From: Candidatus Pacearchaeota archaeon
GTDB taxonomy: Archaea; Nanobdellota; Nanobdellia; Pacearchaeales; GW2011-AR1
Direction: 5' to 3'
DNA: 24,000 bases
NCBI GenBank assembly: GCA_050124795.1
Contig: JASFEO010000006.1
Coordinates: 19,597 to 43,596, forward strand
This document shows positions 12,260-24,000 of this stretch, in pieces. Numbering within the stretch: position 1 is the first letter of the stretch; the number at the start of each line of letters is the position of its first letter. The translations under genes and the position numbers were made by a program. The notes below the pieces were generated by a model. It was not told the DNA's origin. It ran no database searches and was given only the letters and a program-made list of their open reading frames with translations.

Positions 12260-12287
12260 AAAAAAATTTTGCCAAAGGCAAAATTTT
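12260..12287 (-). terminator. Hairpin plus U-tract terminator at the 3' end of the uppS-fusion gene
   Basis: A perfect 11-bp stem (12263-12273 aaaattttgcc and 12277-12287 ggcaaaatttt) has a 3-nt loop. On the minus-strand RNA the 3' arm runs into a 7-U tract. The stem overlaps the stop codon at 12286-12288. Confidence 0.5.
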
Positions 12288-13290
12288 AACTATTCCCACC
12301 AAACCTTCTTTTTCTTTTTGAAAATTCTTTTATTGCAAAATCAATATCTTTTTTTGTAAAATCAGGAAAATGTTTTTTTAAAAAAATTAATTCTGCATAA
12401 ACCCCCTGCCAAGGCATAAAACCACTAAGTCTTTTTTCACCACTTGTTCTAACAATTAAATCAGGATCAGGAACACCTTTTGTATCAAGAATTTCTCCAA
12501 ATTGTTTTTCATTAACTTTTTTTGCCTTTGCAGAAAGTAACTTATTCACATTTCTTAAAATTTCATCCCTACCACCATAATCCAAACATAACTGCACATT
12601 ATAATTTTCATAATTTTTTGTCTCATTTTCTAAAACAATCAAAGCATCTCTAACTTCCTTACTAAATCTCTCTTTTCTTCCAATATGCCTAAACCTAACT
12701 TTATTTTCTTTTGCATAATTTCTAAAATCATTTATTCCTCTTAAAAAAACATTAAACAATTTTTCATTTTCCTCTTTCTCGCGTTTCCAATTCTCAGTTG
12801 AAAAACCCCAAAAAGAAACACAACTAACACCTAAATCTCTTGCTTCTTCAAAAAGAGAAATTAAATTTTCAGACTCTCCAGCTTTTTCATGTCCACGAAA
12901 TCCAAGCAAACCCCTTCTCTTAGCCCAGCGACGATTTCCATCAGGAATAATTGCAATATGAATAGGAATATTTTCCAAGCCTCTTCTTAAAAAAACTAAA
13001 TTTCTAAAACCCCTTAACTTATCAATAAAAAAATTAAAATCTTTTTTAACTTCAAAATTTTCATAATCTAAATCATCTATTTTACTTTTTTTAATTTCAG
13101 TTACCTTTGAAAAACCAGGACTCATCTTAACCCAATCAATAAATTCATTAAAATTTTTATCAATAACAACTAAAACACTTCCATCAAAAAGATTTTTCAC
13201 ATAACCATTAATTTTATTTTCAATACAAAAATTTTTTACTTTATTTCTAAATCCAACAAACTGAACTCTTCCATAAACTTTGATTCTCAT
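12286..13290 (-). CDS. uppS: Fusion protein: N-terminal acylphosphatase-like domain plus cis-prenyltransferase (undecaprenyl/polyprenyl diphosphate synthase, UppS family)
   Basis: aa 1-83 (VYGRVQFVGFR...INGYVKNLFDGSVLVVI...FEVKK) match the acylphosphatase pattern V.G.VQGVGFR / G.V.N..DGSV. From about aa 100 the UppS hallmarks appear: HIAIIPDGNRRWA, RTSGEKRLSGFMPWQ..YAEL and RKRRFGG. Confidence 0.85.
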   Translation of the reverse strand: MRIKVYGRVQFVGFRNKVKNFCIENKINGYVKNLFDGSVLVVIDKNFNEFIDWVKMSPGFSKVTEIKKSKIDDLDYENFEVKKDFNFFIDKLRGFRNLVFLRRGLENIPIHIAIIPDGNRRWAKRRGLLGFRGHEKAGESENLISLFEEARDLGVSCVSFWGFSTENWKREKEENEKLFNVFLRGINDFRNYAKENKVRFRHIGRKERFSKEVRDALIVLENETKNYENYNVQLCLDYGGRDEILRNVNKLLSAKAKKVNEKQFGEILDTKGVPDPDLIVRTSGEKRLSGFMPWQGVYAELIFLKKHFPDFTKKDIDFAIKEFSKRKRRFGGNS

Positions 13291-13693: not shown

Positions 13694-14260
13694 TCAACCA
13701 AAAAACATTGAAAGAGGTCCTTTAGGTCTTTTTATAACAGGAATTATTTTTCCCTCTTCAGATTGTTTATCTCTAAAAATTGCAAAATCTTTTGCTAAAT
13801 CTTCCTTAGAATTTCTCCAATCAAACTTCAATTTATTAGGATTATATGGAAGATAAGATACAGGATAAACTCCTCTTTTTTCCAGAGCATCAAAAAATAA
13901 ATTTGAAATTGCTTTTTTAGTTTTTGCAGAAAAATAACCATTTAATTGAGGTATTGCAGAATGACTAAAAGAATGATATAAATCATCTTTTTTAAGAATA
14001 AAAATTGAATGACCATAAAACCCCTTTCTAGTTTGTCCAAAAAGGTCCACTATCCTTTGTTCGTAACTAAATTTTTCCATAGAATATGCTAAAGCTAAAG
14101 AAAATTCCAAAGCATGAGCTTTTCCAGAATCCAATACCTCTTTTGCAGATCTTACTCTATAAGGTTTAGGACAGGAAAATTCAATTTTAGCAAGATTATC
14201 AAAAACAAGTTTTTCCCTAATTGAAAAAGGATTTTGATTTGACTTCTGAAAACTAAACAT
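13694..14260 (-). CDS. Hypothetical protein (188 aa), function unknown
   Basis: ATG-initiated ORF with a tttaaata box starting 29 nt upstream of ATG 14260. It lies 66 nt downstream of the PolD large-subunit gene. No convincing family assignment. Confidence 0.5.
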   Translation of the reverse strand: MFSFQKSNQNPFSIREKLVFDNLAKIEFSCPKPYRVRSAKEVLDSGKAHALEFSLALAYSMEKFSYEQRIVDLFGQTRKGFYGHSIFILKKDDLYHSFSHSAIPQLNGYFSAKTKKAISNLFFDALEKRGVYPVSYLPYNPNKLKFDWRNSKEDLAKDFAIFRDKQSEEGKIIPVIKRPKGPLSMFFG

Positions 14261-14326: not shown

Positions 14327-17300
14327 CTAGAACCACTTTTCAATACTTTCCTGTTTTTCAAGTTCTTTGCCAAAAATAGAATCAATATATCTTTTTGTTA
14401 ATTCCAAATTTTGTTTCATATAATTTGACAAATTATATTTCTCTGCCAGATTAATTGCAATTTCCAAATATTTTTTTATTCCCCCTTCATGAATTGTAAA
14501 AATAATTTTTCCCCCGCACTTTGGACAAATTCCCTTTAAAGGAGGCCGCCTCATAATTTCATTGCAAGCCACACACCTAAAACCCTGCATTGAAAACTTT
14601 CTTAAATTACCCTTCATATCTCGCAAAAAATGCCTCTCAATCATAAGCCTCGCAGTATCACTTGCATCAACTGCCCGAATTTTCTCAACCAAAGCCATCT
14701 GGTGCTCAACCTTTTCCTGCATTGTCCCCAAAGATTTATACGCTGAGCAAATAACCCCGTTATTAAAATCAGTTGTGTCATGAGTATAACCTAAATTAAC
14801 AAAAGGATTCTTTCCACACCTCATGATATCTTTGCACGTCGTGATATTCTTAACTTCTGAGGAGTGCGCACCTTTTTCAGCTAATTCATATAATTCAATT
14901 GTATAAGTTTTATTTTCAATAAATTCAAAATCCAAAATCTGGTCATCAACTTCTCCTGCATCAATCTTTGCATTTAAAACTAAAGGCGCATCTTGTGTTC
15001 CGCCTCGGTGGCTTGGCAAAAACTTTCTGGAAAAATTTAATAAAACATCTCCTAAAAGCATAACTGCTAATTCATCTCCATCACAATCACGCCTGATAGC
15101 TGCATGCATATAAGGACTTGCATAAAGACCCAAAGAATTTGAAAAACCAATAAACCTGCAAATAACACCTGCGCAATTATGCGGCGCCATGCAAACACCA
15201 AGCTTTCCAACCAAGTCATCCTTGGTTTTAAGATTATAAAAAGAATCCAATCCATAAAAACGAGTGAGTTCATCATCAACAAAATTCGAAACATTTGTAA
15301 ATACATCATCTGCTCTTTCATCCAAAGTCTCAGGAGAACTTGGCAAAAGAACATCATGCGGCATTAATTCCAAAATCTGCTCTTCATTAGTTAATTCCCT
15401 TCCTTCAATATCTTCAGTATATCCAAGTTCTTTTAATTTAAGAACTCCAACCCCAATTTCTTTTGGCTTAAAAGAAACCAAAGGCAATTCAGTTGCATCA
15501 AAGCGAATTGTCCCATCCTTGTTTACCTGCAAATTATGTTTTGCCCTTAAAATCCCCTTAGCCAAATTCTCCATTGTGTGTCCTTCTGAAGAAGTTCCCC
15601 TAACACCTTTAATTAAAAGCGGCAGCATTTCATTAGTAAAATTAATTTTTTCCTTAGCCTTTTTAAAATAATGATTTATATCAATTGACTGAAAACAAGA
15701 ATCCATTCCCTCTCTCTCACTTGACTCATTTCTCTTTTCAAATGATTTTTCTTTTGTATCTGTAAAATAAAATTTCTTTCTTGTTTTTGCCTCACAAATT
15801 TCACAAACTGGATAAATAGTTTCCTTGTCGCACTTCTCACAATAATAAAGTGGAAACTGACTTTTAACACAACCAACTTCCATTGCAGCCTGAACACTCC
15901 TTAATCTTCCTCCCTGAGAAGAAACAGGAAATAAAACATTCGGACTTCCTGTTAATTTTCTTAATTTTGCTTTTTCAGGACGACCCATTCTCGTTCCAAT
16001 AAAATCTCCGGACTTATCTTTAATTTCAAAGAAAGACAAACTATCAACAATTTCTAAAACATCCTCACTCTCAATTAACTTCATTTTTTCAACTTCTTCT
16101 TTTAATAAAAATTCTTCTTTTTCTAAAATCCATAAATCAATTCCCAAATTAACAAATAATGCTTTTGAATTTTTTTCATTTATCACAACATTCTCAATTG
16201 TAACTTCATGCTCCATTCCAATTAATTCAAGTGCTCTTTTTCCAAGGCTGAATTTTTCTTCCTCAGTTTTATTAAACGGCAAAATAATTTTTCCTCCTCG
16301 AACAATTGAATTTCCTAACCAATTAATTAAGCCTAAAAATTTTTCATGATTTATTTCCTTCCAATAAAAAATAAATTCAGGATAAAAAGGGATTTTATAT
16401 TTTTCACTAAATAAAATTGCGTCATCAATTAATACATTAAAAAAATCCTCAATTTTTTCTCCTGCTTTTTCTAAATCTAATTTCCACCATTCTTCAACAT
16501 ACCCTGATTTTAGCAAACCAGCATTTCTATTTATAACGTCGCTAAAAGGAAATAAAATATCTCCCAAATAAATTATTTCTTCAACATCTTTGTAAAGTTC
16601 CTTTGCTTCATCTTTTGTTTTTAATTTTCTTACACTTCCATTTTTGAGTTTTACAATCGGCCCGTCGATAAAGTCACACACAGTTGTAACACACCCCTTA
16701 GTTGGCTTTTCAATTTTTAACTGTGTTCCAATAGCAATAAAAGAATCAGTAATTGCCATTGTCGCAGGATGCAAACTAACTGCACTAAAGCCATTTACTC
16801 TTCCTCGCCCATATCTAAATCTAAAACCTCCGGACCTCGAGGGATGACCATAAACAGGTCTGCCTGCAACCAAATCCTTAATATAAGTTGGAACAGCATC
16901 TCCTATTTTTTTTCCTTTGGCACTTGTTAGTTTTTCATGAAGTTCTAAATATTCACTTAAAAAATCAAAACCAGTTGCATTAATTCCATTTTTCTTAGCA
17001 CCATTAAGAAGTCGAAAACCTTTTGCAGCTTTTTGAGCCAGGCCTTCAGAAAAAATTAAACACATCCCCCCCCGAATATTATTTGTCTCAACTCTATCCA
17101 AATTCTTATAATTTGATACTTCAAGTTTTTCTGTTGGTTCTCCTGCAATTTGAATTGGAAGGTGTTTTGCTAAAAATTCCATCTCCTCTTCCAAAGGAAA
17201 ATATTGCAAATTCGTAACCCTCTCATGATAATCAGTATTCTCAGTAACATATCTTTTCACTTCTTCATCATTTGGGTCATATTTTGCATATCCAAATAAT

Positions 17301-17809
17301 TCCCGTAAATAATCAATTAACATTAGAACAATACAAGAAGCAGTTGTTCCTGCTGAACGAATTGGTCCTGAAAAATAAGCCTTAAAATATTCTTTGCCGT
17401 CGCGGGTTTTTTCAATTTTTAATTCTGTATATCCTTCAATTGGACTTGCAACAACTGCAATAGTCTGATATGCAAAACCAACCCTTATCCCTGCATCAAT
17501 TGCCTCATGCAAACTTGCAAACTTGCAAAACTTTTGCTTTGCCACTTCTTCTGCAATTTTAAAAGTAACAGTCGTATCAAGCTTTCCATACTTTTTTTCA
17601 AGTTCAATAATTCTTTTATCAACCCCTGAATCCAAAAGCTGAGGATAAAGAACAGAAATTAAACCAACAACTTTTTCAGCCATACTCATTGCAAGAGGAA
17701 TCTCAACTTTTTCCGAAGGATCATATCCTAAAGCTCTGGCTTCATTCATAACCTTGTAAACTTTTTTTACATCTTTTTCTAAATCCTTAAAATATTTTTG
17801 AGTTTCCAT
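14327..17809 (-). CDS. polC: DNA polymerase II (PolD) large catalytic subunit DP2
   Basis: 1160 aa, the typical intein-free DP2 length. It has the acidic catalytic motif RRDCDGDE and Cys4 clusters CEKCDKETIYPVCEICEAK and CVACNEIMRRPPLKGICPKCGGK. It also has GTRMGRPEKA and a C-terminal PIP box. It is syntenic with DP1 and cdc6. Confidence 0.95.
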   Translation of the reverse strand: METQKYFKDLEKDVKKVYKVMNEARALGYDPSEKVEIPLAMSMAEKVVGLISVLYPQLLDSGVDKRIIELEKKYGKLDTTVTFKIAEEVAKQKFCKFASLHEAIDAGIRVGFAYQTIAVVASPIEGYTELKIEKTRDGKEYFKAYFSGPIRSAGTTASCIVLMLIDYLRELFGYAKYDPNDEEVKRYVTENTDYHERVTNLQYFPLEEEMEFLAKHLPIQIAGEPTEKLEVSNYKNLDRVETNNIRGGMCLIFSEGLAQKAAKGFRLLNGAKKNGINATGFDFLSEYLELHEKLTSAKGKKIGDAVPTYIKDLVAGRPVYGHPSRSGGFRFRYGRGRVNGFSAVSLHPATMAITDSFIAIGTQLKIEKPTKGCVTTVCDFIDGPIVKLKNGSVRKLKTKDEAKELYKDVEEIIYLGDILFPFSDVINRNAGLLKSGYVEEWWKLDLEKAGEKIEDFFNVLIDDAILFSEKYKIPFYPEFIFYWKEINHEKFLGLINWLGNSIVRGGKIILPFNKTEEEKFSLGKRALELIGMEHEVTIENVVINEKNSKALFVNLGIDLWILEKEEFLLKEEVEKMKLIESEDVLEIVDSLSFFEIKDKSGDFIGTRMGRPEKAKLRKLTGSPNVLFPVSSQGGRLRSVQAAMEVGCVKSQFPLYYCEKCDKETIYPVCEICEAKTRKKFYFTDTKEKSFEKRNESSEREGMDSCFQSIDINHYFKKAKEKINFTNEMLPLLIKGVRGTSSEGHTMENLAKGILRAKHNLQVNKDGTIRFDATELPLVSFKPKEIGVGVLKLKELGYTEDIEGRELTNEEQILELMPHDVLLPSSPETLDERADDVFTNVSNFVDDELTRFYGLDSFYNLKTKDDLVGKLGVCMAPHNCAGVICRFIGFSNSLGLYASPYMHAAIRRDCDGDELAVMLLGDVLLNFSRKFLPSHRGGTQDAPLVLNAKIDAGEVDDQILDFEFIENKTYTIELYELAEKGAHSSEVKNITTCKDIMRCGKNPFVNLGYTHDTTDFNNGVICSAYKSLGTMQEKVEHQMALVEKIRAVDASDTARLMIERHFLRDMKGNLRKFSMQGFRCVACNEIMRRPPLKGICPKCGGKIIFTIHEGGIKKYLEIAINLAEKYNLSNYMKQNLELTKRYIDSIFGKELEKQESIEKWF
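14330..14353 (-). other. C-terminal PCNA-interacting peptide (PIP box) QESIEKWF of DP2
   Basis: The last eight codons before TAG read Q-E-S-I-E-K-W-F. This matches Q-x-x-[ILM]-x-x-[FYW]-[FYW] exactly. Confidence 0.7.
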
Positions 17810-17810
17810 T

Positions 17811-18779
17811 TTATTTTGGGGTTATTTTTATTTTCCTAACAAGTTTGGATTTTTCTTCCTGCTTACCAATAATCTCTGCATATTCATCAGATAAACAACT
17901 TAACCTTTCATAAGAACCATTAACTGAAACCTCGGGATCAACATACCTAAACTTTTTCTTTAATCCAATTCCATTTTCAGTTTCGTAAATATCAGAACCA
18001 TTTTTTAAAATTTTCAATTGATTTAAAATATCTTTATCATTTGAATTTCTTAAAATATTTAAAACATAATTATCAGTTTTATAAAAATCTTCAAAAGAAA
18101 TAATTTTTTTTTCTAAACCTTTTTTTAATAATTCAGATAAAAGATAATATCTTGTTCTTGCTTCATCACTTGCCAAGGAATTTTCCTGAAGATTTGAATA
18201 TTCTTTAAAAAAAATCTCTGCGATATTTTTATTTTTAAAAACTATTTGATTGCTTTTAACAAAAAGATTATTAAAAATTAATTTTGGGTTTTTAGAACCC
18301 TTATTATAAAACAGTTCTCTCAAAGAATAATCAATTCTATCTGCACACAAACTTGGAGCCTCTTTTTCTAACAAAAGAAAATTTTCTAACTTAGAAATGT
18401 ATTCAAAAGAAAAATTATATCTGTTTAAAATTTCGGGAATTTCAGAATTTTTAATCACCTCTAAATGATTATTATCCTGGTAATCTTCTTTAATTGGGTC
18501 TCCAAAAATCCAATCAATCACATGCGAAAAAGCAGTATGGGAAACATCATGAAGTAATCCTGAAATCTGTTCATCTAAATCAGATCCTAATTTTCTTAAT
18601 AAAAGAAAAACTCCTAATGAATGCTCAAATCTCGAAAATCCTTTTTTGTAGTAATATTCATCAGGCATACCTAATTGAGAAATTCCTTTCAATCTTTGAA
18701 TAGATTTTGAATTAATTAATTCAATTAAAACTGGCTCATCAATTTTTTCTTTTCCATAAATACTATCTATAATTTCCAT
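17811..18779 (-). CDS. HD-domain metal-dependent phosphohydrolase (COG1078-like, SAMHD1/dNTP triphosphohydrolase superfamily)
   Basis: The H...HD...D set is present: RFEHSLGV, GLLHDVSHTAFSH, CADRIDYSLRE. The N-terminus has D.IYG...QRLKGISQLG, typical of this family. The stop lies 1 nt from the DP2 ATG, and the start overlaps the upstream HAD gene by 17 nt. Confidence 0.75.
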   Translation of the reverse strand: MEIIDSIYGKEKIDEPVLIELINSKSIQRLKGISQLGMPDEYYYKKGFSRFEHSLGVFLLLRKLGSDLDEQISGLLHDVSHTAFSHVIDWIFGDPIKEDYQDNNHLEVIKNSEIPEILNRYNFSFEYISKLENFLLLEKEAPSLCADRIDYSLRELFYNKGSKNPKLIFNNLFVKSNQIVFKNKNIAEIFFKEYSNLQENSLASDEARTRYYLLSELLKKGLEKKIISFEDFYKTDNYVLNILRNSNDKDILNQLKILKNGSDIYETENGIGLKKKFRYVDPEVSVNGSYERLSCLSDEYAEIIGKQEEKSKLVRKIKITPK

Positions 18780-19383
18780 TTTTAAAAATATCCTCCTGCA
18801 CTTCTAACAAATTATTAACAGGAATTATCTTTTTTTCTTGTCTTCCATTTGCCCACAAATATTTATTCCAGGGTCTTTTTGGAAAATAACATTTAATTCC
18901 TGAATCAGAACATTCAGAAATAGTCTCTCCTCTATCATCAGTTAAATATTGAACATTATTTTCTAAGCAAAAATTTAATTTTGAATGATTGCTGCAAGTT
19001 TTATTGCCATTGCAAATAACTTTTTTTATCTCAGGAAAATATTCTTCAACAAATTCTTCAGTTTCTTTTTGTAAAAAAACAGGTCTTGCAGTAATTAAAA
19101 TTTGATATTTTACTTTTGATAAATTCTTAACAACACTTTGCGCTTCAGGATAAGGCCTTAAATTTTCAAAGTCCTGAGATTTATAAAAACAATTAAGCAT
19201 CTCCAAAAATTCTCCCCTTAAAATTTTAAAAACTTCCCAAGGGAAAAAATTAGTAAAATCTTCAAATTTACAATTAGTCCCAAAAACACGATTTCCATAA
19301 ACAACTAATCCCTTCTCAAAAGTAGGAATAAGGGTATCATCCAAATCCCATGCTAAAACTTCTAAATCACTTTTTATTCCCAT
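18763..19383 (-). CDS. HAD-superfamily hydrolase, 5'(3')-deoxyribonucleotidase (NT5C-like) family candidate
   Basis: HAD motif I is WDLDDTLIPTF, motif II ILITARP and motif IV YLTDDR. The C-terminus has KRPWN. It is a paralogue-like match to the ORF at 21085-21666. Confidence 0.6.
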   Translation of the reverse strand: MGIKSDLEVLAWDLDDTLIPTFEKGLVVYGNRVFGTNCKFEDFTNFFPWEVFKILRGEFLEMLNCFYKSQDFENLRPYPEAQSVVKNLSKVKYQILITARPVFLQKETEEFVEEYFPEIKKVICNGNKTCSNHSKLNFCLENNVQYLTDDRGETISECSDSGIKCYFPKRPWNKYLWANGRQEKKIIPVNNLLEVQEDIFKNGNYR

Positions 19384-19465
19384 TTTAAAAAAAAACCTTT
19401 CTCCTTTTTATTGATTTATATTTTCTAACAATAGTTTTCTAATTTCTATTTAATAATTTCAAACA

Positions 19466-21088
19466 TCATACTTCAATCTTTTCCTCTTCTTCAAAATCTA
19501 AAATCTTAATAGATCTGGTTTTCAAATTTACCATTGGAACCTTACAGTGATCAGGCGTGTTTCCAAACTTTTCCTGATAAGGAGTCATTGCTTCCCAGCA
19601 TGAAGTTGAAACTAATAAAATATTATTATAATATGTCACTGCACTTTTATGGGTATGAGCAGAAACTAAAATATCCGGAATATTAGAAATTAAATGATAA
19701 TCAGTATCAACAGAGGGAAAATATTGAACAGATGCATGAGTCGGTGCCAGATGCCTTTGCCTAAGTAGATACTTCATAATTTCTTCAGGAGAATTTGCTG
19801 CCTTCATTTTCATGAGCCTTGCAACATTATTCACATAATAAAAATAAGAAAACCCATGATAAATTAAAACATTAAAACCATTAAAATTTTTATTAAGTCC
19901 AATTTTTACTTCACTTGGATTTGGAACCAAAATTACATTGTCAAGTTCATAAAGCGGCCATGCATATTTTTCATCAAAAATAGGCTGCGGCTCCATTAAC
20001 CTAACACCCTCATGATTTCCAGGAGAAATAATTATTTTTATATCAGATCTTATTTTTCTAAAAAGTTCTGCAACCTGCAAATATTGTTCTTCCAAATCCA
20101 TTACTTTTAAATCATTTTCCTGATTAGGATAATTTCCAACCCCGGTAATAATGTCTCCTGCAACAATTAAATATTTTATTTTCTCAACTTCTTCTTTTGT
20201 TCCTGCAACTTTGCCATTTAAATAATCAATAAATTTCAAAAAACTTTTTTCCAAAAACCTCTTGCTTCCATAATGCAAATCTCCAATAAACAAAGCATAT
20301 TCCTCTTTTGGCGACTTTTTTCTCGTCAATAAAATTGCCTCTGGAAAAATAACCTCATTTGCAAAAAGAATTTCACGATTTCCAGAACCCTTAAAACCAA
20401 CAATACTATCAAGTGCAATTTCCTCTGCCTTTTCATAAATTTCTTTTTTATCTTTATTAATTAAAACCCGAATTGTTCCTGTCAAATCCTCAATATCTAA
20501 AATTATATTTTTATTTTTAGTAACTCTTTTCTCACTAACTAAACCAATTACTGAAACCCTGCTTCTATCATTTAAAATTTTATTTATTGAAACTAAATTA
20601 TCTAATTCACTATGCTCCTGCAAAATTTCTCTCATTTTATTAAACCTGTTTCTAAAATATTTTACAAAATCAATAACTTCAAGTTTTTTTCCAGGCGTCG
20701 GATTTTGAAAACTAACTTCCACATTCTCATTTATTTTTTCTGTTTTAATTTTTTCAGAATTTTTAACAAAAGAATTTTTTGAATTATCAAAATTATCAAT
20801 AATTTCAGACTCATGAGAAATTTCAATACTAAGACCCAAATTAATTTTCAGTTTTTCTAATTTTTTTTGATTCTCCCTCGGCAAATCCATAAAAAACTTA
20901 TTCACTATCGCGCGATTTTTCTGAAAAACATTTTTTGTAATAATTTTCTGATTAGTATGACTTCTTATTTTTTCCAAAATAATTTTCACAGCCTCTGCGT
21001 CATTAGTCTCACTAAATAAATTCAATACTTCACTATCTAATAAAAATCCTTTTTCAAAACAAAATTTCAAAATTTCCTGAGTATTCAT
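19466..21088 (-). CDS. polB: DNA polymerase II (PolD) small subunit DP1 (Mre11-like phosphoesterase/proofreading exonuclease)
   Basis: Calcineurin-like phosphoesterase motifs are present in order: FIGDLHYGS, VAGDI, PGNHEG, YHGFS, SAHTHK. An OB-fold-like segment precedes them (VSVIGLVSEKRV...ILDIEDLTGTIRVLI). 540 aa. The start overlaps the upstream HAD stop (ATGA at 21085-21088). Confidence 0.9.
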   Translation of the reverse strand: MNTQEILKFCFEKGFLLDSEVLNLFSETNDAEAVKIILEKIRSHTNQKIITKNVFQKNRAIVNKFFMDLPRENQKKLEKLKINLGLSIEISHESEIIDNFDNSKNSFVKNSEKIKTEKINENVEVSFQNPTPGKKLEVIDFVKYFRNRFNKMREILQEHSELDNLVSINKILNDRSRVSVIGLVSEKRVTKNKNIILDIEDLTGTIRVLINKDKKEIYEKAEEIALDSIVGFKGSGNREILFANEVIFPEAILLTRKKSPKEEYALFIGDLHYGSKRFLEKSFLKFIDYLNGKVAGTKEEVEKIKYLIVAGDIITGVGNYPNQENDLKVMDLEEQYLQVAELFRKIRSDIKIIISPGNHEGVRLMEPQPIFDEKYAWPLYELDNVILVPNPSEVKIGLNKNFNGFNVLIYHGFSYFYYVNNVARLMKMKAANSPEEIMKYLLRQRHLAPTHASVQYFPSVDTDYHLISNIPDILVSAHTHKSAVTYYNNILLVSTSCWEAMTPYQEKFGNTPDHCKVPMVNLKTRSIKILDFEEEEKIEV

Positions 21089-21666
21089 TTTAATTTATCA
21101 ATTATTTCATTCCAATTTTTAACTCTTGTAATATTTTCATGTTCGCAATTTTGATTCCAAGGTTTATCTAGTAAAAAAACTTTAATTCCTTTTTCTGCGC
21201 AATTATAAGAAAAAAATTTATTATCTTCTATAAGAACATCTACACCAATTTCACTGCAAATTTCATCTTTCGTTTTTCTTCCTGAATAAATATCTCCTGA
21301 AAAATAAACTTCATAAGGTTTATTTAAAAAATATTTTTTTAAAAATTCTTTAGTTATTTCTTCATTTGAAACCCTTCTGGAAGTAATAAAAAAAATTTTA
21401 TGTAAAAAAAATAATTTATTCAAAATTTCTTCAACACCTTCAATTAATTTCATTTTTTTAAAATAATTTGTTTTATGAAATTCTCCCAAAATTTCAATAA
21501 CATCTTCACAAGTATGACCAAAAGGTTCTCTTAAATAAATATCTTCAATATCCTCAACATTAAACTCTTTTCCAAATCTGAATTTATAAAAATCCAAATA
21601 ACTATTAATAAAATCAGCTACAGTATCATCAATATCAATTCCAATTTTTAATTTTTCTTTTTTCAT
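21085..21666 (-). CDS. HAD-superfamily hydrolase, 5'(3')-deoxyribonucleotidase (NT5C-like) family candidate
   Basis: Motif I is IGIDIDDTVADF (very like the NT5C D-x-D-x-[TV]-L-A-D-F start), motif II FFITSRR and motif IV VLIEDN. The C-terminus has LLDKPWNQ. 193 aa. Confidence 0.65.
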   Translation of the reverse strand: MKKEKLKIGIDIDDTVADFINSYLDFYKFRFGKEFNVEDIEDIYLREPFGHTCEDVIEILGEFHKTNYFKKMKLIEGVEEILNKLFFLHKIFFITSRRVSNEEITKEFLKKYFLNKPYEVYFSGDIYSGRKTKDEICSEIGVDVLIEDNKFFSYNCAEKGIKVFLLDKPWNQNCEHENITRVKNWNEIIDKLK

Positions 21667-21701
21667 TTTAAAAATTTAATCTTTCAATTACTAAATCTAA
21701 T

Positions 21702-22934
21702 TTAATAATTAACCACTTCACTAATAATTTCCTTTGCCTTGTCAATAATATTTTTTGTTATTGCAAGTTTTATTTCTCTCATTCTTCCACCCCTGCCTTT
21801 TGAAATAACCCTCACATTAATAATTCCCAGCATATCAAACTCCTGGATAATATCACTAACCCTTCTCTGAGTCAAAACCTCAACATGATTTTTCATGCAA
21901 ACATCCTGATAAAAATTATAAACATCTCCAGTAAAAATAGGTTCATTCCCTTGTTTTTCAGACAAAGTTATAATCGAAGACAAAACAAACTGAAACTGTT
22001 TAGGTTCACTTCTGATAACATCCAAAATCTTATCTTTTTCCATTTTCTCATTTGCTAAATCAATATGACGAAGTAAAATTTTTTTTGAAGAATCCCTTTC
22101 AGCAAGTTCCCCTGAAATCCTCAATAAATCAAGAGCCCGCCTTGCATCACCATGTTCCCTTGCAGCATATGCAGCGCATTTTGCAATAACACCCTCCTCA
22201 ACAACATTCTCTTCAAAAGCATCACAAGACCTTTTATTTAAAATTTCCTGCAGCTGCAAAGCATTATAAGGTGAAAAAACAACCTCTTCCTCAGAAAGTG
22301 AACTTCTTACTCTTGGATCAACCCCATCCAAAAAAGTCAAATCATTACTTATCCCAACAACACAAATCTGGGTTTTTGCTAATTCTGAATTAAGACGAGT
22401 TAAATTATATAAAAAATCACTTGAAATTTTCTTAACAGTCTGGTCAATTTCATCTAAAACCAAAACCAAAAGCTGCTTTTCGGAATCAATTAATTCAATA
22501 AACTTGCTGTAAACCGCCTCAGTGGGCAGGCCAGTCGCAGGAATATTCCCATTAAGTTTTTTTATAAGTTCAGCCAAAATCCTGTATTCAGTATCAGAAA
22601 TTTTTTTTAACTTGCAATTTAAATAAATAATTTTTAATTTATGAGGAGAATCCTCACCAACCCTCTTTAAAAGTTCATCTTTAACATAATTAATTGAAAG
22701 AGTTTTTCCAGTCCCGGTCTTTCCATATAAAAATAAATTGCTTGTTCTCTCACCCCTTAAAACCGGCGCTAAAATAGATGCAATCTGCTTTATCTGCTCC
22801 CCACGATGAAGAATATTATCCAAATCATTTGGCTGATAATTTGCCTGCAAAACTTCTTTTTTCCTAAACAAACTTTTACTATTACTAACAGAATCAAAAA
22901 TTTCATTTAAACTTTCTATTTGTGTTTTTGTCAT
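21702..22934 (-). CDS. cdc6: Orc1/Cdc6 replication initiator (AAA+ plus C-terminal winged helix)
   Basis: Walker A is LYGKTGTGKT and Walker B is LVLVLDEID. It has sensor-like GDARRALDLLR and a C-terminal wH-like region (RVSDIIQEFDMLGII...GRGGRMREI). 410 aa, directly adjacent to the ORB repeats. Confidence 0.92.
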   Translation of the reverse strand: MTKTQIESLNEIFDSVSNSKSLFRKKEVLQANYQPNDLDNILHRGEQIKQIASILAPVLRGERTSNLFLYGKTGTGKTLSINYVKDELLKRVGEDSPHKLKIIYLNCKLKKISDTEYRILAELIKKLNGNIPATGLPTEAVYSKFIELIDSEKQLLVLVLDEIDQTVKKISSDFLYNLTRLNSELAKTQICVVGISNDLTFLDGVDPRVRSSLSEEEVVFSPYNALQLQEILNKRSCDAFEENVVEEGVIAKCAAYAAREHGDARRALDLLRISGELAERDSSKKILLRHIDLANEKMEKDKILDVIRSEPKQFQFVLSSIITLSEKQGNEPIFTGDVYNFYQDVCMKNHVEVLTQRRVSDIIQEFDMLGIINVRVISKGRGGRMREIKLAITKNIIDKAKEIISEVVNY

Positions 22935-22964: not shown

Positions 22965-22994
22965 ACCCCTCCCAGCATGATTTCTTATGGAAAA
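22965..22994 (-). repeat. ORB1: core plus G-string
   Basis: The minus strand reads TTTTCCATAAGAAATCATGCTGGGAGGGGT. The core TTTCCATAAGAAAT (22980-22993) is followed by the G-string GGGAGGGGT (22965-22973). It abuts the cdc6 promoter. Confidence 0.7.
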
Positions 22995-23077
22995 TAAAGT
23001 TTATTTTTATTTTTCGTTGAGAAAAATATAATTTATTATATAAATGATTATAACTACTAAAAAAGAAAAACACCTAT

Positions 23078-23093
23078 ATTTCTTGTGGAAAAA
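23078..23093 (-). repeat. ORB2: mini-ORB without a clear G-string
   Basis: The plus strand reads ATTTCTTGTGGAAAAA, differing from the ORB1 core at one position (A to G). It contains GTGGAAA, as in the TCCAGTGGAAA mini-ORB consensus I recall from Pyrococcus and Sulfolobus. Confidence 0.6.
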
Positions 23094-23095
23094 TG

Positions 23096-23294
23096 AAAAT
23101 TCTAATTAAAATATTTAAAAACATAAAAAAGAATGAAAAAAATCTTATTTTTTATAATAATATAAATAAAATAAACTTCTAATAAAGTATTTTTATATTT
23201 ATTTAATATAAAATAATTAATCTATATACTATATAATATAAATTTTTTTAAATAAATAATAAATAATAAAAACTTAAATTTTTATTTTTAAATG
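23096..23294. other. Candidate duplex unwinding element (DUE)
   Basis: About 200 bp of almost pure A/T lie between ORB2 and the inverted ORB3, for example tatatactatataatataaa and aaataaataataaataataaaa. There is no credible ORF. Confidence 0.6.
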
Positions 23295-23323
23295 TTTCCA
23301 TAAGAAATTAAAGGGTCAGGGTG
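23295..23323 (+). repeat. ORB3: inverted copy of ORB1 with a G-rich tail
   Basis: The plus strand reads TTTCCATAAGAAATTAAAGGGTCAGGGTG. The 14-nt core (23295-23308) is the exact reverse complement of 22980-22993 and is followed by GGG..GGG. Confidence 0.7.
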
Positions 23324-23368
23324 TTAAAAAATCCAAAGTTTTATAAAATATTCATTATTAAAAATTCT

Positions 23369-23566
23369 ATGAAAACATCTCTTGAAGATTTAAATCTAGA
23401 TGAACCTGTTGTTGAAAGTTCTCCCATTAATTCTATTAATTATCTAAACCAATATTCTAAATATCTTTCAAATTCTTTAGAAGATTCTAAAAAGAAAATA
23501 AAAAAGAATAATAAAAAATATGGTGGAGAAGAAATTCCTTTAGAAGGAATTAAACCTCTTTTTTAA
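23369..23566 (+). CDS. Hypothetical small protein (65 aa from ATG 23369)
   Basis: The ORF track starts at GTG 23321, inside ORB3. ATG 23369 has TTTATAAA starting at 23340, exactly 29 nt upstream, matching the other leaderless promoters. No motif recognised. Confidence 0.4.
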   Translation: MKTSLEDLNLDEPVVESSPINSINYLNQYSKYLSNSLEDSKKKIKKNNKKYGGEEIPLEGIKPLF

Positions 23567-23614
23567 TCATTTTTTATTTATATTCTTTAATGTATATTTA
23601 ATTTCATAGAAAAG

Positions 23615-23622
23615 TTTATAAG
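23615..23622 (+). promoter_or_regulatory. TATA box (aaagTTTATAAG) 30 nt upstream of ATG 23645
   Basis: The sequence and spacing match the boxes at 5311 and 23340. Confidence 0.45.
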
Positions 23623-23644
23623 TTATTTTCTTGTTGTTTTTAGC

Positions 23645-23905
23645 ATGCAGGAAAATAAGAATACATTTAATGATATCTTTGGAAAAATGATTGTAACAAA
23701 AGAAGGAAAAAGACTTGGGTTTGTCAAGGACCTGACTTTTGAGACAAAATCAGGAGAACTAATAAATATTGTTGTAAAAGATTCAACACTTTATACTAAA
23801 AATCTTAATTTAGAAAAAACAAATTCAAATAACCATTTAATACCCCATAGCGCAATTATTGCAATTGGAGATTTTGTAATTGTTTCTGAAGAAGATTTAA
23901 TATAA
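23645..23905 (+). CDS. PRC-barrel domain protein
   Basis: 86 aa. The pattern G..V....G..LG.V.D..F....G.I..IVV ... IP...I..IGD.VIV is present (GKMIVTKEGKRLGFVKDLTFETKSGELINIVV...LIPHSAIIAIGDFVIVSEEDL). This is typical of small archaeal PRC-barrel proteins. Confidence 0.6.
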   Translation: MQENKNTFNDIFGKMIVTKEGKRLGFVKDLTFETKSGELINIVVKDSTLYTKNLNLEKTNSNNHLIPHSAIIAIGDFVIVSEEDLI

Positions 23906-24000
23906 AATTTATTTATTAAGAAGATAATATTATTTTTATAAAATTAAATATAACTTTTTTTATAGAAATACTTAAAAACAAAGATTTTATTAAATCAATA

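What the first reader, a model, noticed from the sequence alone, without database searches (positions are those of the whole stretch)
14327..22934. Three nucleotide-phosphohydrolase genes intercalated into the conserved oriC-proximal cdc6-DP1-DP2 replication operon
Seen: the gene order on the minus strand is cdc6 (22934-21702), a 35-nt gap, NT5C-like HAD (21666-21085), an ATGA overlap, DP1 (21088-19466), an 82-nt gap, a second NT5C-like HAD (19383-18763), a 17-nt overlap, HD hydrolase (18779-17811), a 1-nt gap, and DP2 (17809-14327). Established knowledge: in Pyrococcus-type genomes cdc6, DP1 and DP2 sit together next to oriC. NT5C-family HAD enzymes dephosphorylate dNMPs, and COG1078/SAMHD1-type HD enzymes hydrolyse dNTPs. 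Inference: the replicative polymerase is co-expressed and translationally coupled with enzymes that degrade its own substrates. This may be a dNTP-pool sanitising or balancing module, a salvage route in an organism lacking de novo nucleotide synthesis, or a built-in dNTP-depletion antiviral brake. The two HAD paralogues flanking DP1 are particularly odd.
Basis: partly seen in the sequence, partly recalled or inferred. Interest (0 to 1): 0.6.

Follow-up and report, generated by a model that had tools for sequence, protein, structure and literature searches.

The report
Nucleotide-hydrolase slots in PolD operon
In this tiny uncultured archaeon, and in about half of its order, the genes for the main DNA-copying enzyme are interleaved with interchangeable enzymes that break down DNA building blocks; I found no paper describing this link, which suggests that upkeep of the building-block pool is tied to replication.

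Summary
On the minus strand the window carries cdc6, HAD1, DP1, HAD2, HD and DP2, with the stated gaps and overlaps.

- **Family assignments hold.** Both HADs pass Pfam NT5C and keep all four HAD motifs. The HD protein is a compact, confidently modelled member of the EF1143/SAMHD1 dNTPase fold with the metal-binding residues intact.
- **The arrangement is a recurrent theme, not an assembly oddity.** In 151 genomes of the same order, DP1 and DP2 are neighbours in 141. In 72 of those a gene sits between them. In about 61 of the 72 it is a phosphohydrolase: NT5C-HAD, a second HAD family, long HD, short HD, Nudix or HIT, including Nudix-HD and HAD-HD fusions. The occupant changes even within genera.
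- **The cdc6-DP1 junction is a rarer second slot.**
- **HAD1 is the orthologue of the usual slot HAD, displaced upstream of DP1.** HAD2 is a fast-evolving copy.
- **Likely role.** The enzymes are probably made with the replicase to police the deoxynucleotide pool. No deoxynucleoside kinase was found, so hydrolysis looks like a one-way sink.

Substrates and co-transcription are untested. The scan had noted the same theme in other genomes. I found no published description.

The parts
22980..23308 (.). Putative oriC core: an exact 14-nt inverted pair (ATTTCTTATGGAAA and its reverse complement) flanking about 300 nt of very AT-rich DNA, just upstream of cdc6
   Evidence: pair I11; G+C 0.18 in 23001-24000. 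No origin activity was tested.
21702..22934 (-). orc1/cdc6 replication initiator, 410 aa
   Evidence: Cdc6_C, Cdc6_lid, TIGR02928 at 398 bits
21085..21666 (-). HAD1: NT5C-family HAD phosphatase, 193 aa, likely a 5'(3')-deoxyribonucleotidase. It is the orthologue of the HAD that normally sits between DP1 and DP2, here placed between cdc6 and DP1.
   Evidence: PF06941, 40.7 bits; motifs D11, D13, T95, K133, D148; pLDDT 94.7; best folds 3bwv and human mdN; tree, 99/95 clade of slot HADs; phrog_420
19466..21088 (-). PolD small subunit DP1 (OB fold plus Mre11-like phosphoesterase), 540 aa
   Evidence: NF003118 at 1e-120
19384..19465 (-). 82-nt spacer with TATAAAT about 36 nt upstream of the HAD2 start codon. 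This is a possible internal promoter for HAD2-HD-DP2.
   Evidence: the promoter reading is inference only
18763..19383 (-). HAD2: divergent NT5C-family HAD phosphatase, 206 aa, in the DP1-DP2 slot
   Evidence: PF06941, 33.4 bits; all HAD motifs kept; nearest relative only 37% identical; that relative lies in cdc6-DP1-NT5C-DP2; long branch
17811..18779 (-). HD: compact 322-aa HD-domain phosphohydrolase of the EF1143/SAMHD1 (COG1078-like) fold, likely a dNTP triphosphohydrolase, in the DP1-DP2 slot
   Evidence: invariant H53, H77, D78, D147, R148, Y151; pLDDT 94.9; TMq 0.74-0.78 to EF1143
14327..17809 (-). PolD large catalytic subunit DP2, 1160 aa, starting 1 nt after the HD stop codon

Best explanation
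The stretch is the origin-adjacent replication operon of a Woese-/Pacearchaeota-type DPANN archaeon (1.06 Mb, about 29% G+C). Three accessory genes sit in two 'slots' of the operon: HAD1 at the cdc6/DP1 junction, and HAD2 plus HD at the DP1/DP2 junction.

All three look catalytically intact as Mg-dependent phosphohydrolases. The two NT5C-family HADs most likely remove the phosphate from deoxynucleoside monophosphates. The EF1143/SAMHD1-fold HD most likely cleaves dNTPs to deoxynucleoside plus triphosphate.

Across the order these slots are filled, emptied and refilled by functionally similar but unrelated hydrolases: HAD, HD, Nudix and HIT. The conserved unit is therefore 'a nucleotide hydrolase made together with PolD'.

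The most likely role is policing of the deoxynucleotide pool during replication: removal of surplus or non-canonical dNTPs and dNMPs, including the dNMPs released by DP1 proofreading. The genome shows no deoxynucleoside or thymidine kinase, so the nucleosides produced are probably not recycled and hydrolysis is a one-way sink.

Shown: gene order, family and fold, intact motifs, and recurrence with turnover across genomes. Inferred: co-transcription, substrates, and the link to replication fidelity.
For: - Anatomy and families.
- HD: the metal quartet and neighbouring residues are invariant across 43 homologues. The sequence blocks align to EF1143, Aq_1910 and SAMHD1. The full-length fold matches the EF1143 dNTPase.
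- HADs: motifs I-IV are kept, and the nearest folds are deoxyribonucleotidases.
- Order-wide tally: DP1 and DP2 are adjacent in 141 of 151 genomes, the slot is filled in 72, and about 61 occupants are HAD, HD, Nudix or HIT.
- Fusions: Nudix-HD (L072) and NT5C-HAD-HD (L171) tie the families to one task.
- Turnover: the occupant varies within genera (g24: empty, NT5C, long HD, short HD), and G105 holds a decayed HD remnant.
- Second slot: in other genomes the cdc6/DP1 junction holds HIT or short HD.
- Nearest HD relatives: 11 of the closest archaeal loci have cdc6-DP1-HD-DP2, and the 1-nt HD/DP2 gap recurs in three relatives.
- Slot Nudix proteins are closest to MutT, NudG and NudI types.
- Outside PolD contexts the HD family sits next to Nudix genes, and next to a weak Nuc_deoxyrib_tr-like gene scoring below its Pfam cut-off.
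- Enrichment, counting each family only once: P about 5e-6 at a 3% background (background).
- Pool context: RNR, a ThyA-like gene and dUTPase are present, and dNK and TK were not found.
- PolD is known to stall on template uracil (PMC3627576).
Against: - No enzyme was assayed, so the substrates rest on family and fold resemblance only.
- The commonest slot occupant in the order, the 19 HAD-IB proteins, is closest (below cut-off) to phosphoserine-phosphatase-like models. It is not evidently a nucleotidase.
- The short HD is YedJ-like with unknown substrate.
- About half of the genomes have an empty slot, so the function is dispensable or supplied from elsewhere in the genome.
- Eleven of the 72 occupants are not phosphohydrolases of these four superfamilies (AP endonuclease, glycosyltransferase, adenylosuccinate synthetase, unknowns).
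- No RNA run was listed, and a possible internal promoter precedes HAD2, so a single transcript is unproven.
- The genome already has a dUTPase and about nine other Nudix genes.
- The tally was made by hand from coordinate tables and is approximate.
- The genome is 90% complete, so absence of the kinases is not proven.
Confidence: 0.55

Rival explanations
1. Salvage rather than disposal. The NT5C-type HADs act as nucleoside phosphotransferases, or as part of a scavenging route. They would convert imported deoxynucleosides or nucleotides into usable precursors for a symbiont that lives on scavenged nucleic acids, and the HD and Nudix enzymes would feed the same route.
For: The fold neighbours of HAD1 include cdN/mdN and the AphA phosphatase/phosphotransferases; that cdN has phosphotransferase activity is my recollection. 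No dNK or TK was found, so another way to phosphorylate deoxynucleosides would be useful. Pacearchaeota and Woesearchaeota are proposed to live on scavenged nucleotides (PMC8204110 abstract). In three other loci the HD family sits next to a weak Nuc_deoxyrib_tr-like gene that scores below its Pfam cut-off.
Against: The genome has RNR, a ThyA-like gene and dUTPase, so it can make dNTPs from ribonucleotides. A dNTP triphosphohydrolase and MutT-like Nudix enzymes destroy precursors rather than make them. No nucleoside transporter or phosphorylase is linked to the operon.
Confidence: 0.12
2. A defence or counter-virus hot spot. The slots behave like a small variable island, and the hydrolases deplete dNTPs or destroy virus-made modified nucleotides during infection.
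For: The occupant turns over rapidly even within genera. Slot Nudix proteins hit the PADLOC candidate PDC-S07, and a slot HIT hits ThsC. HAD1 and HAD2 match a large phage family, phrog_420. SAMHD1 and bacterial dGTPases are known antiviral dNTP depleters (my own knowledge).
Against: PADLOC has no hit for HAD1, HAD2 or HD. The genes lie inside the operon of the essential replicase with 1-nt gaps and overlaps, with no sensor or regulator nearby. Constitutive dNTP depletion coupled to the cell's own replicase would harm the cell. Many occupants are ordinary housekeeping-type families.
Confidence: 0.1
3. Neutral hitch-hiking. The DP1/DP2 and cdc6/DP1 junctions are simply permissive insertion sites in a strongly expressed operon. 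Small abundant genes land and persist there without any tie to replication.
For: Half of the slots are empty. Unrelated genes also occur there: glycosyltransferase, adenylosuccinate synthetase, peptidase S51, an NTP transferase and several unknowns. Outside this order the slot is mostly empty, or holds an MFS transporter and DUF2797.
Against: About 85% of occupants come from four nucleotide-hydrolase superfamilies that make up only about 2-3% of genes in the window's genome. Even counting each family once, P is about 5e-6. Fusions among the slot families (L072, L171) and the recurrent 1-nt HD/DP2 junction argue for selection.
Confidence: 0.12
4. A phosphate-handling role not centred on deoxynucleotides, for example removal of pyrophosphate or triphosphate produced at the fork, or dephosphorylation of a replisome protein or another small molecule.
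For: No family-I pyrophosphatase was found in the genome. A HAD-type pyrophosphatase (BT2127) is among the more distant fold neighbours of HAD1 (ranks 48-49). The commonest slot family in the order is phosphoserine-phosphatase-like HAD-IB.
Against: HAD1 and HAD2 pass the NT5C model, and the best fold hits are deoxyribonucleotidases. The HD keeps the blocks that align with the nucleotide-binding region of EF1143 and SAMHD1. Other pyrophosphatase families (family II, membrane-bound) were not searched, so absence of a pyrophosphatase is not shown.
Confidence: 0.08

Closest known systems
Pyrococcus/Thermococcales-type origin island oriC-cdc6-DP1-DP2 (reviewed in Berthon et al. 2008, PMC2643942)
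   Same: The order cdc6, DP1, DP2 on one strand next to an AT-rich region with an inverted repeat. cdc6 and DP1 are tightly linked in the relatives.
   Different: Here, and in about half of the order, hydrolase genes are wedged between the subunit genes. That paper, which covered the 27 archaeal genomes then available, reports no hydrolase in this position.
EF1143 (Enterococcus faecalis) and SAMHD1 dNTP triphosphohydrolases (PDB 2o6i, 3irh, 4lrl; SAMHD1 entries)
   Same: HD fold over the whole model (TMq 0.74-0.78 to EF1143, about 0.6 to SAMHD1). The H...HD...D metal quartet and the flanking RFEHSLGV, LLHDxxHxxFSH and DRxDY blocks are kept.
   Different: The protein is only 322 aa against 430-626, with 17-22% identity. 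No SAM domain is present. The allosteric sites and the tetramer interface were not assessed. The family is named only 'HD domain-containing protein' in databases.
Mitochondrial and cytosolic 5'(3')-deoxyribonucleotidases mdN/cdN and the S. epidermidis deoxyribonucleotidase-like protein 3bwv (Pfam NT5C, PF06941)
   Same: Scores above the Pfam threshold, HAD motifs I-IV, similar size, and best fold matches (TM 0.71-0.81).
   Different: Identity is 18-20%. Sequence-only PDB matches are marginal (E about 0.1 for HAD1, none for HAD2). No NCBIfam model matches. Substrate preference is unknown.
'House-cleaning' nucleotide hydrolases (MutT, NudG, dUTPase, ITPase; concept recalled from memory)
   Same: The proposed logic is the same: hydrolysing unwanted (d)NTPs before the polymerase can use them. 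Slot Nudix proteins in relatives are closest to MutT, NudG and NudI models.
   Different: Known house-cleaning genes are not described as embedded in the replicase operon. Here several unrelated folds alternate at one genomic position.
Phage replication modules that carry nucleotide-metabolism genes (for example phage 5'-deoxyribonucleotidases; recalled from memory)
   Same: A nucleotidase encoded beside a DNA polymerase. HAD1 and HAD2 match phage family phrog_420, and weakly phrog_2643 '5'-3' deoxyribonucleotidase'.
   Different: This is the cellular chromosome's origin-proximal replicase operon, not a mobile element. No phage genes were seen in the window.

Membership tests
Pfam NT5C (PF06941) 5'(3')-deoxyribonucleotidase family | Score above the curated gathering threshold (24.8 bits) | tested here: met
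   HAD1 40.7 bits, covering profile positions 4-172 of 180. HAD2 33.4 bits, covering profile positions 3-115.
Pfam NT5C (PF06941) 5'(3')-deoxyribonucleotidase family | HAD catalytic motifs: I DxDxT, II T/S, III K, IV D/E-D | tested here: met
   D11 and D13 are invariant, T95 is kept in at least 90%, K133 is invariant and D148 is kept in at least 90% of 30 aligned sequences. Both HAD1 and HAD2 keep them all.
Pfam NT5C (PF06941) 5'(3')-deoxyribonucleotidase family | Fold with the NT5C-type cap, closest to solved deoxyribonucleotidases | tested here: met
   HAD1 model pLDDT 94.7. Top hits are 3bwv (TMt 0.81), mdN (TM 0.72) and cdN. HAD2 was not modelled.
Pfam NT5C (PF06941) 5'(3')-deoxyribonucleotidase family | Preference for 2'-deoxynucleoside monophosphates | not testable with these tools
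   Needs an enzyme assay.
EF1143/SAMHD1-type (COG1078-like) dNTP triphosphohydrolases | HD metal-binding quartet H...HD...D | tested here: met
   H53, H77, D78 and D147 are invariant in 43 homologues.
EF1143/SAMHD1-type (COG1078-like) dNTP triphosphohydrolases | Overall fold of the catalytic core | tested here: met
   Model pLDDT 94.9. Foldseek gives EF1143 at TMq 0.74-0.78 and E 5e-11, then BT4208, Aq_1910 and SAMHD1.
EF1143/SAMHD1-type (COG1078-like) dNTP triphosphohydrolases | Substrate-pocket residues (Q-L before the first His, R before the first His, H-x4-H after HD, R/K and Y in the DRxDY block) | tested here: inconclusive
   Q35, R50, H81, H86, R148 and Y151 are conserved and lie in blocks that HMMER aligns to EF1143 and Aq_1910. 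The one-to-one mapping to SAMHD1 numbering is from memory, not from a superposition.
EF1143/SAMHD1-type (COG1078-like) dNTP triphosphohydrolases | Allosteric nucleotide sites and tetramer assembly | not tested
   The protein is 100-300 residues shorter than characterised members. No oligomer model was made.
EF1143/SAMHD1-type (COG1078-like) dNTP triphosphohydrolases | dNTP to deoxynucleoside plus triphosphate activity | not testable with these tools
   Needs an enzyme assay.
Pyrococcus-type oriC-cdc6-DP1-DP2 replication island | cdc6, DP1 and DP2 co-oriented and adjacent | tested here: met
   and in 141 of 151 genomes of the order for DP1 and DP2. cdc6 is next to DP1 in nearly all of them.
Pyrococcus-type oriC-cdc6-DP1-DP2 replication island | Origin with ORB repeats beside cdc6 | tested here: inconclusive
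   An exact 14-nt inverted pair flanks AT-rich DNA. No comparison was made with verified ORB elements, and there are no functional data.
Known anti-phage nucleotide-depletion systems (PADLOC-DB 2.0) | Match to a defence-system protein model | tested here: not met
   No hit for HAD1, HAD2 or HD at E up to 0.01.

The most novel reading that the evidence does not exclude
The PolD operon of this DPANN order carries a fast-evolving 'nucleotide quality-control cassette'. Enzymes of unrelated folds replace one another at the DP1/DP2 and cdc6/DP1 junctions to match the replicase to whatever damaged, modified or unbalanced deoxynucleotides a scavenging symbiont takes from its host or surroundings. They may work docked on PolD. 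Occupant type would then track host or habitat chemistry, and would be a readable marker of it.
Probability: 0.3. Interest if true: 0.75.

Novelty: new variant of a known kind. Interest (0 to 1): 0.6.

Why it matters
PolD is the essential replicase of most archaea, and little is known about how its substrate pool is controlled. Here four hydrolase superfamilies recur inside the replicase operon and are exchanged for one another. This is comparative evidence that pool policing is tied to replication in these reduced, symbiotic cells.

The finding also assigns a testable function to a large uncharacterised HD family. That family has more than 3,600 relatives across DPANN and CPR and is annotated only as 'HD domain-containing protein'. 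The same applies to a phage-shared HAD family.

The system is simple enough to test in vitro: PolD with and without the slot enzyme, on contaminated dNTP pools.

Tried and rejected
- **RNA evidence.** I looked for RNA support for co-transcription. Only one DNA run (a wetland metagenome, probably the source) holds the locus, and no RNA run was listed.
- **HAD2 relatives.** The word-based search found nothing but HAD2 itself. The exhaustive search found only distant relatives, at most 37% identical. Long fusion hits to HAD2 (P0128, P0221) were unrelated multi-domain proteins, not replication proteins.
- **Recent duplication.** I considered that HAD1 and HAD2 were a recent tandem duplication and rejected it: they are 26% identical and sit in different places in the tree.
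- **Assembly artefact or unique event.** Rejected by the order-wide survey.
- **Spread beyond the order.** Other families of the class mostly have DP1 and DP2 directly adjacent, divergent or far apart. One family instead has an MFS transporter, a HIT-like gene and DUF2797, so the hydrolase slot is mainly a feature of this order.
- **Neighbours of the HD family outside PolD contexts.** No strongly conserved partner was found, only recurrent Nudix genes and a weak deoxyribosyltransferase-like gene.
- **Literature.** Four searches and three papers read gave no description of the association.


Full report
**1. The observation**

I read every junction from the sequence:
- cdc6 stop, then 35 nt, then the HAD1 start.
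- HAD1 and DP1 share ATGA.
- DP1 stop, then 82 nt, then the HAD2 start. TATAAAT lies about 36 nt upstream of the HAD2 ATG, so an internal promoter is possible.
- HAD2 and HD overlap by 17 nt.
- The HD stop TAA, one A, then the DP2 ATG.

Pfam and NCBIfam identify the following:
- cdc6: Cdc6_C, Cdc6_lid, TIGR02928.
- DP1: NF003118 at 1e-120.
- DP2: all three PolC_DP2 domains.
- The two small proteins: NT5C (PF06941) at 40.7 and 33.4 bits against a 24.8-bit cut-off.
- The 322-aa protein: HD domain at 31.9 bits against a 22-bit cut-off.

Upstream of cdc6 the DNA drops to 18% G+C and carries an exact 14-nt inverted pair 301 nt apart. This is compatible with an origin.

**2. The organism**

The window's assembly is 1.06 Mb in 38 contigs and 90% complete. 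Its relatives have genomes of 0.4-1.3 Mb. Public records with the nearest homologues are labelled Woesearchaeota, Pacearchaeota, Nanoarchaeota or Nanobdellota. It is therefore a DPANN archaeon. The only sequencing run that holds the locus is a wetland metagenome.

**3. The three accessory proteins**

*HD.* The sequence-only PDB search puts EF1143 (2o6i), Aq_1910 (2hek), BT4208 (2q14) and SAMHD1 on top. The alignments run through the RFEHSLGV, LLHDxxHxxFSH and DRxDY blocks. In an alignment of 43 homologues from DPANN, CPR bacteria and a few Bacillota, these residues are invariant: H53, H77, D78, D147 (the metal quartet), R29, Q35, H86, R148, D150 and Y151. R50 and H81 are kept in at least 90%. 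The AlphaFold model is confident (pLDDT 94.9). It superposes over its whole length on the EF1143 dNTP triphosphohydrolase (TMq 0.74-0.78) and less well on SAMHD1 (about 0.6). The protein is 100-300 residues shorter than characterised members, and I did not assess allosteric sites or oligomer contacts. The family is large, with 3,672 hits at E up to 1e-10, and carries only the name 'HD domain-containing protein'.

*HADs.* An alignment of 30 relatives shows D11 and D13 (motif I), T95 (motif II), K133 (motif III) and D148 (motif IV) conserved, plus an invariant R97 and a PWN motif. Both HAD1 and HAD2 keep all of them. The HAD1 model (pLDDT 94.7) is closest to the S. epidermidis deoxyribonucleotidase-like protein 3bwv (TMt 0.81), then to human mitochondrial and cytosolic 5'(3')-deoxyribonucleotidases (TM about 0.72). 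Both HADs also match a large phage family of unknown function, phrog_420. HAD1 matches a phage '5'-3' deoxyribonucleotidase' family weakly.

HAD2 is an outlier. No relative shares words with it among 5.8 billion proteins, and its nearest relative in an exhaustive search is 37% identical. That relative sits in a cdc6-DP1-NT5C-DP2 locus.

**4. Comparative genomics**

This is the main result. I searched 151 genomes of the window's order with DP1, with the first 400 residues of DP2, with HD, with HAD1 and with cdc6. I then fetched and annotated the DNA between the genes. The tally below was made by hand from the coordinate tables and is approximate.

- DP1 and DP2 are co-oriented neighbours in 141 genomes.
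- In 69 of these the gap is 170 bp or less.
- In 72 a gene, or occasionally two, fills the gap on the same strand.

| Occupant of the DP1-DP2 slot | Genomes |
|---|---|
| NT5C-type HAD | 17 |
| NT5C HAD plus long HD (this window) | 1 |
| Long HD like the window's | 9 |
| Long-HD decayed remnant lacking the N-terminal catalytic part (G105) | 1 |
| Nudix-long-HD fusion (G116) | 1 |
| Short YedJ-like HD | 9 |
| Second HAD family, subfamily IB | 19 (two in tandem in one genome) |
| Nudix | 2 |
| HIT | 2 |
| Endonuclease-IV-like AP endonuclease | 2 |
| Nucleotidyl transferase | 1 |
| Glycosyltransferase plus an unknown protein | 3 |
| Adenylosuccinate synthetase | 1 |
| Unknown | 4 |

Three further genomes, broken by contig ends, agree with the pattern. 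One of them, G108, carries an NT5C-HAD fused to a short HD directly upstream of DP2.

About 61 of the 72 occupants (85%) therefore belong to the HAD, HD, Nudix or HIT superfamilies. In the window's own genome these superfamilies account for roughly 20 of about 1,100 genes. Genomes are not independent, so the conservative count takes each gene family once. That gives 6 hydrolase families among about 16 families ever seen in the slots, with P about 5e-6 at a 3% background.

**5. Turnover**

The occupant changes inside single genera as labelled by the tool.
- g24: empty slots (G023, G142, G150), NT5C (G090, G107, G127), long HD (G096) and short HD (G112).
- g44: long HD, empty, Nudix-HD, NT5C, and adenylosuccinate synthetase.
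- g45: empty, HIT and long HD.
- g57: empty, NT5C and AP endonuclease.
- g60: empty, long HD and Nudix.

The truncated HD in G105 shows decay in place.

**6. The second slot**

The cdc6-to-DP1 gap is normally 5-50 nt. Besides the window (HAD1), it is filled as follows:
- G166 and G070: HIT proteins.
- G156: a short HD.
- G162: a peptidase S51.
- G158 and G012: unknown proteins.

HAD1's position is therefore unusual but follows the same rule.

**7. Where HAD1 and HAD2 come from**

I built a maximum-likelihood tree of 36 NT5C-type HADs.
- HAD1 falls inside a well-supported clade (99/95) made up only of HADs that sit between DP1 and DP2 in other genomes.
- Seven HADs encoded elsewhere in their genomes form a separate clade (99/97).
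- HAD2 is a long, unresolved branch near the slot HAD of L177.

HAD1 is thus the orthologue of the usual slot gene, moved one junction upstream. HAD2 is a fast-evolving or acquired second copy. They are not a recent duplicate pair, being only 26% identical.

**8. Spread beyond the order**

Among the 80 best genome loci for the HD family, the closest archaeal ones (at least 45% identity) nearly all read cdc6-DP1-HD-DP2. One, L076, reads cdc6-DP1-HAD-HD-DP2. More distant homologues in other DPANN phyla, CPR bacteria and Bacillota are not next to PolD.

The 1-nt gap between HD and DP2 recurs in three relatives.

In a sample of 107 genomes from other orders of the class, DP1 and DP2 are mostly directly adjacent, divergent or far apart. 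One family has an MFS transporter, a HIT-like gene and DUF2797 between them.

Where the HD family lies outside a PolD context, its recurrent neighbours are Nudix genes (5 loci) and a weak nucleoside-deoxyribosyltransferase-like gene that scores below its Pfam cut-off (3 loci).

**9. Metabolic context in the window's genome**

Found: a class I/II ribonucleotide reductase, a ThyA-like gene, a dUTPase-family gene and a Nudix gene, clustered on another contig. Also found: a third NT5C gene lying about 1 kb from a Nudix gene.

Not found, in a 90% complete genome: ThyX, class III RNR, deoxynucleoside kinase, thymidine kinase and family-I pyrophosphatase.

The cell can therefore make dNTPs by reduction. 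As far as seen, it cannot re-phosphorylate deoxynucleosides.

**10. Interpretation**

The simplest reading that covers all the slot families is that a nucleotide hydrolase is made together with PolD. The window's three enzymes most likely act on deoxynucleotides:
- HD: dNTP to deoxynucleoside plus triphosphate.
- HADs: dNMP to deoxynucleoside plus phosphate.

Without kinases this is a sink. That suits removal of unwanted or surplus precursors, including dNMPs released by DP1 proofreading, better than it suits recycling. PolD is known to be inhibited by template uracil (PMC3627576), which gives a reason to keep the pool clean.

Several weaknesses remain:
- No assay was done.
- The commonest slot family, HAD-IB, is nearest to phosphoserine-phosphatase-like models below their cut-offs.
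- The short HD has no known substrate.
- Half of the genomes do without a slot gene.
- Transcription is unmeasured.

The rivals I kept are salvage by phosphotransfer, a defence-like variable island, neutral hitch-hiking, and a non-nucleotide phosphate role. PADLOC gives no hit for the window's three proteins. Some slot Nudix and HIT proteins of relatives do hit candidate or accessory defence models.

**11. Novelty**

The genes themselves are new members of known families. In the literature I could search, I found no description of a hydrolase slot in the PolD operon. This includes a genomic-context study of archaeal replication genes (PMC2643942) and a DPANN protein-family survey that looked at the PolD neighbourhood for another reason (PMC8204110).

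The scan itself has noted the same theme in at least seven other genomes, as unchecked first-reader notes: HD; HAD; HAD plus HD; Nudix-HD; HAD plus Nudix. My survey agrees with those notes and puts them into one picture.

Noticed in passing
window 12286-13290 (-): A 334-aa protein joins an N-terminal acylphosphatase domain (PF00708, 7e-14) to a full UppS-type cis-prenyltransferase (PF01255, 1e-64). A relative, L077, has a UppS homologue directly after DP2.
   Followed up: partly
window 13694-14260 (-): The 188-aa ORF just downstream of DP2 has no Pfam or NCBIfam match. tblastn did not find it next to DP2 in five relatives.
   Followed up: partly
L171 (G108:C31:1-1242): An NT5C-type HAD is fused to a short HD domain in one 375-aa (5'-open) frame directly upstream of DP2. 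Its HD part is 70% identical to the short HD that sits between cdc6 and DP1 in G156.
   Followed up: partly
L072 (G116:C55:42280-44025): A 480-aa Nudix-long-HD fusion lies between DP1 and DP2. L055 (G129) holds a 305-aa double-Nudix protein in the same slot.
   Followed up: partly
L173 (G105:C14:4990-5986): The 263-aa slot ORF aligns only to residues 86-319 of the HD protein and has no Pfam HD hit. It appears to be a decayed remnant that has lost the catalytic N-terminus.
   Followed up: partly
L157 (G271:C7:29536-30480): There is a 744-bp gap between DP1 and DP2 with no ORF of 80 aa or more on either strand. It could be non-coding RNA, a decayed gene or another genetic code; I did not examine it.
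   Followed up: no
L159-L165 (family f11 of the class): In another family of the class, DP1 and DP2 are separated by an MFS transporter, a HIT-like 155-aa protein and a DUF2797 protein.
   Followed up: partly
relatives; L177: Many relatives have DP2 open frames of 1,600-2,190 aa against about 1,160 here. In L177 the extra part is an intein (Intein_splicing plus LAGLIDADG) inside the catalytic domain. The window's DP2 has none.
   Followed up: no
G000:C1:22316-28832: The window's genome has a deoxynucleotide-synthesis cluster on another contig: a ThyA-like gene, a dUTPase-family gene, a Nudix gene and a class I/II ribonucleotide reductase within about 7 kb.
   Followed up: partly
G000:C5:8518-10270: A third, very divergent NT5C-family gene (47.8 bits) lies about 1 kb from a Nudix gene in the window's genome.
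   Followed up: no
L056, L057 (G137, G141): In two genomes of one genus, the slot between DP1 and DP2 holds an endonuclease-IV-like AP endonuclease. This is a DNA-repair enzyme rather than a nucleotide hydrolase.
   Followed up: partly
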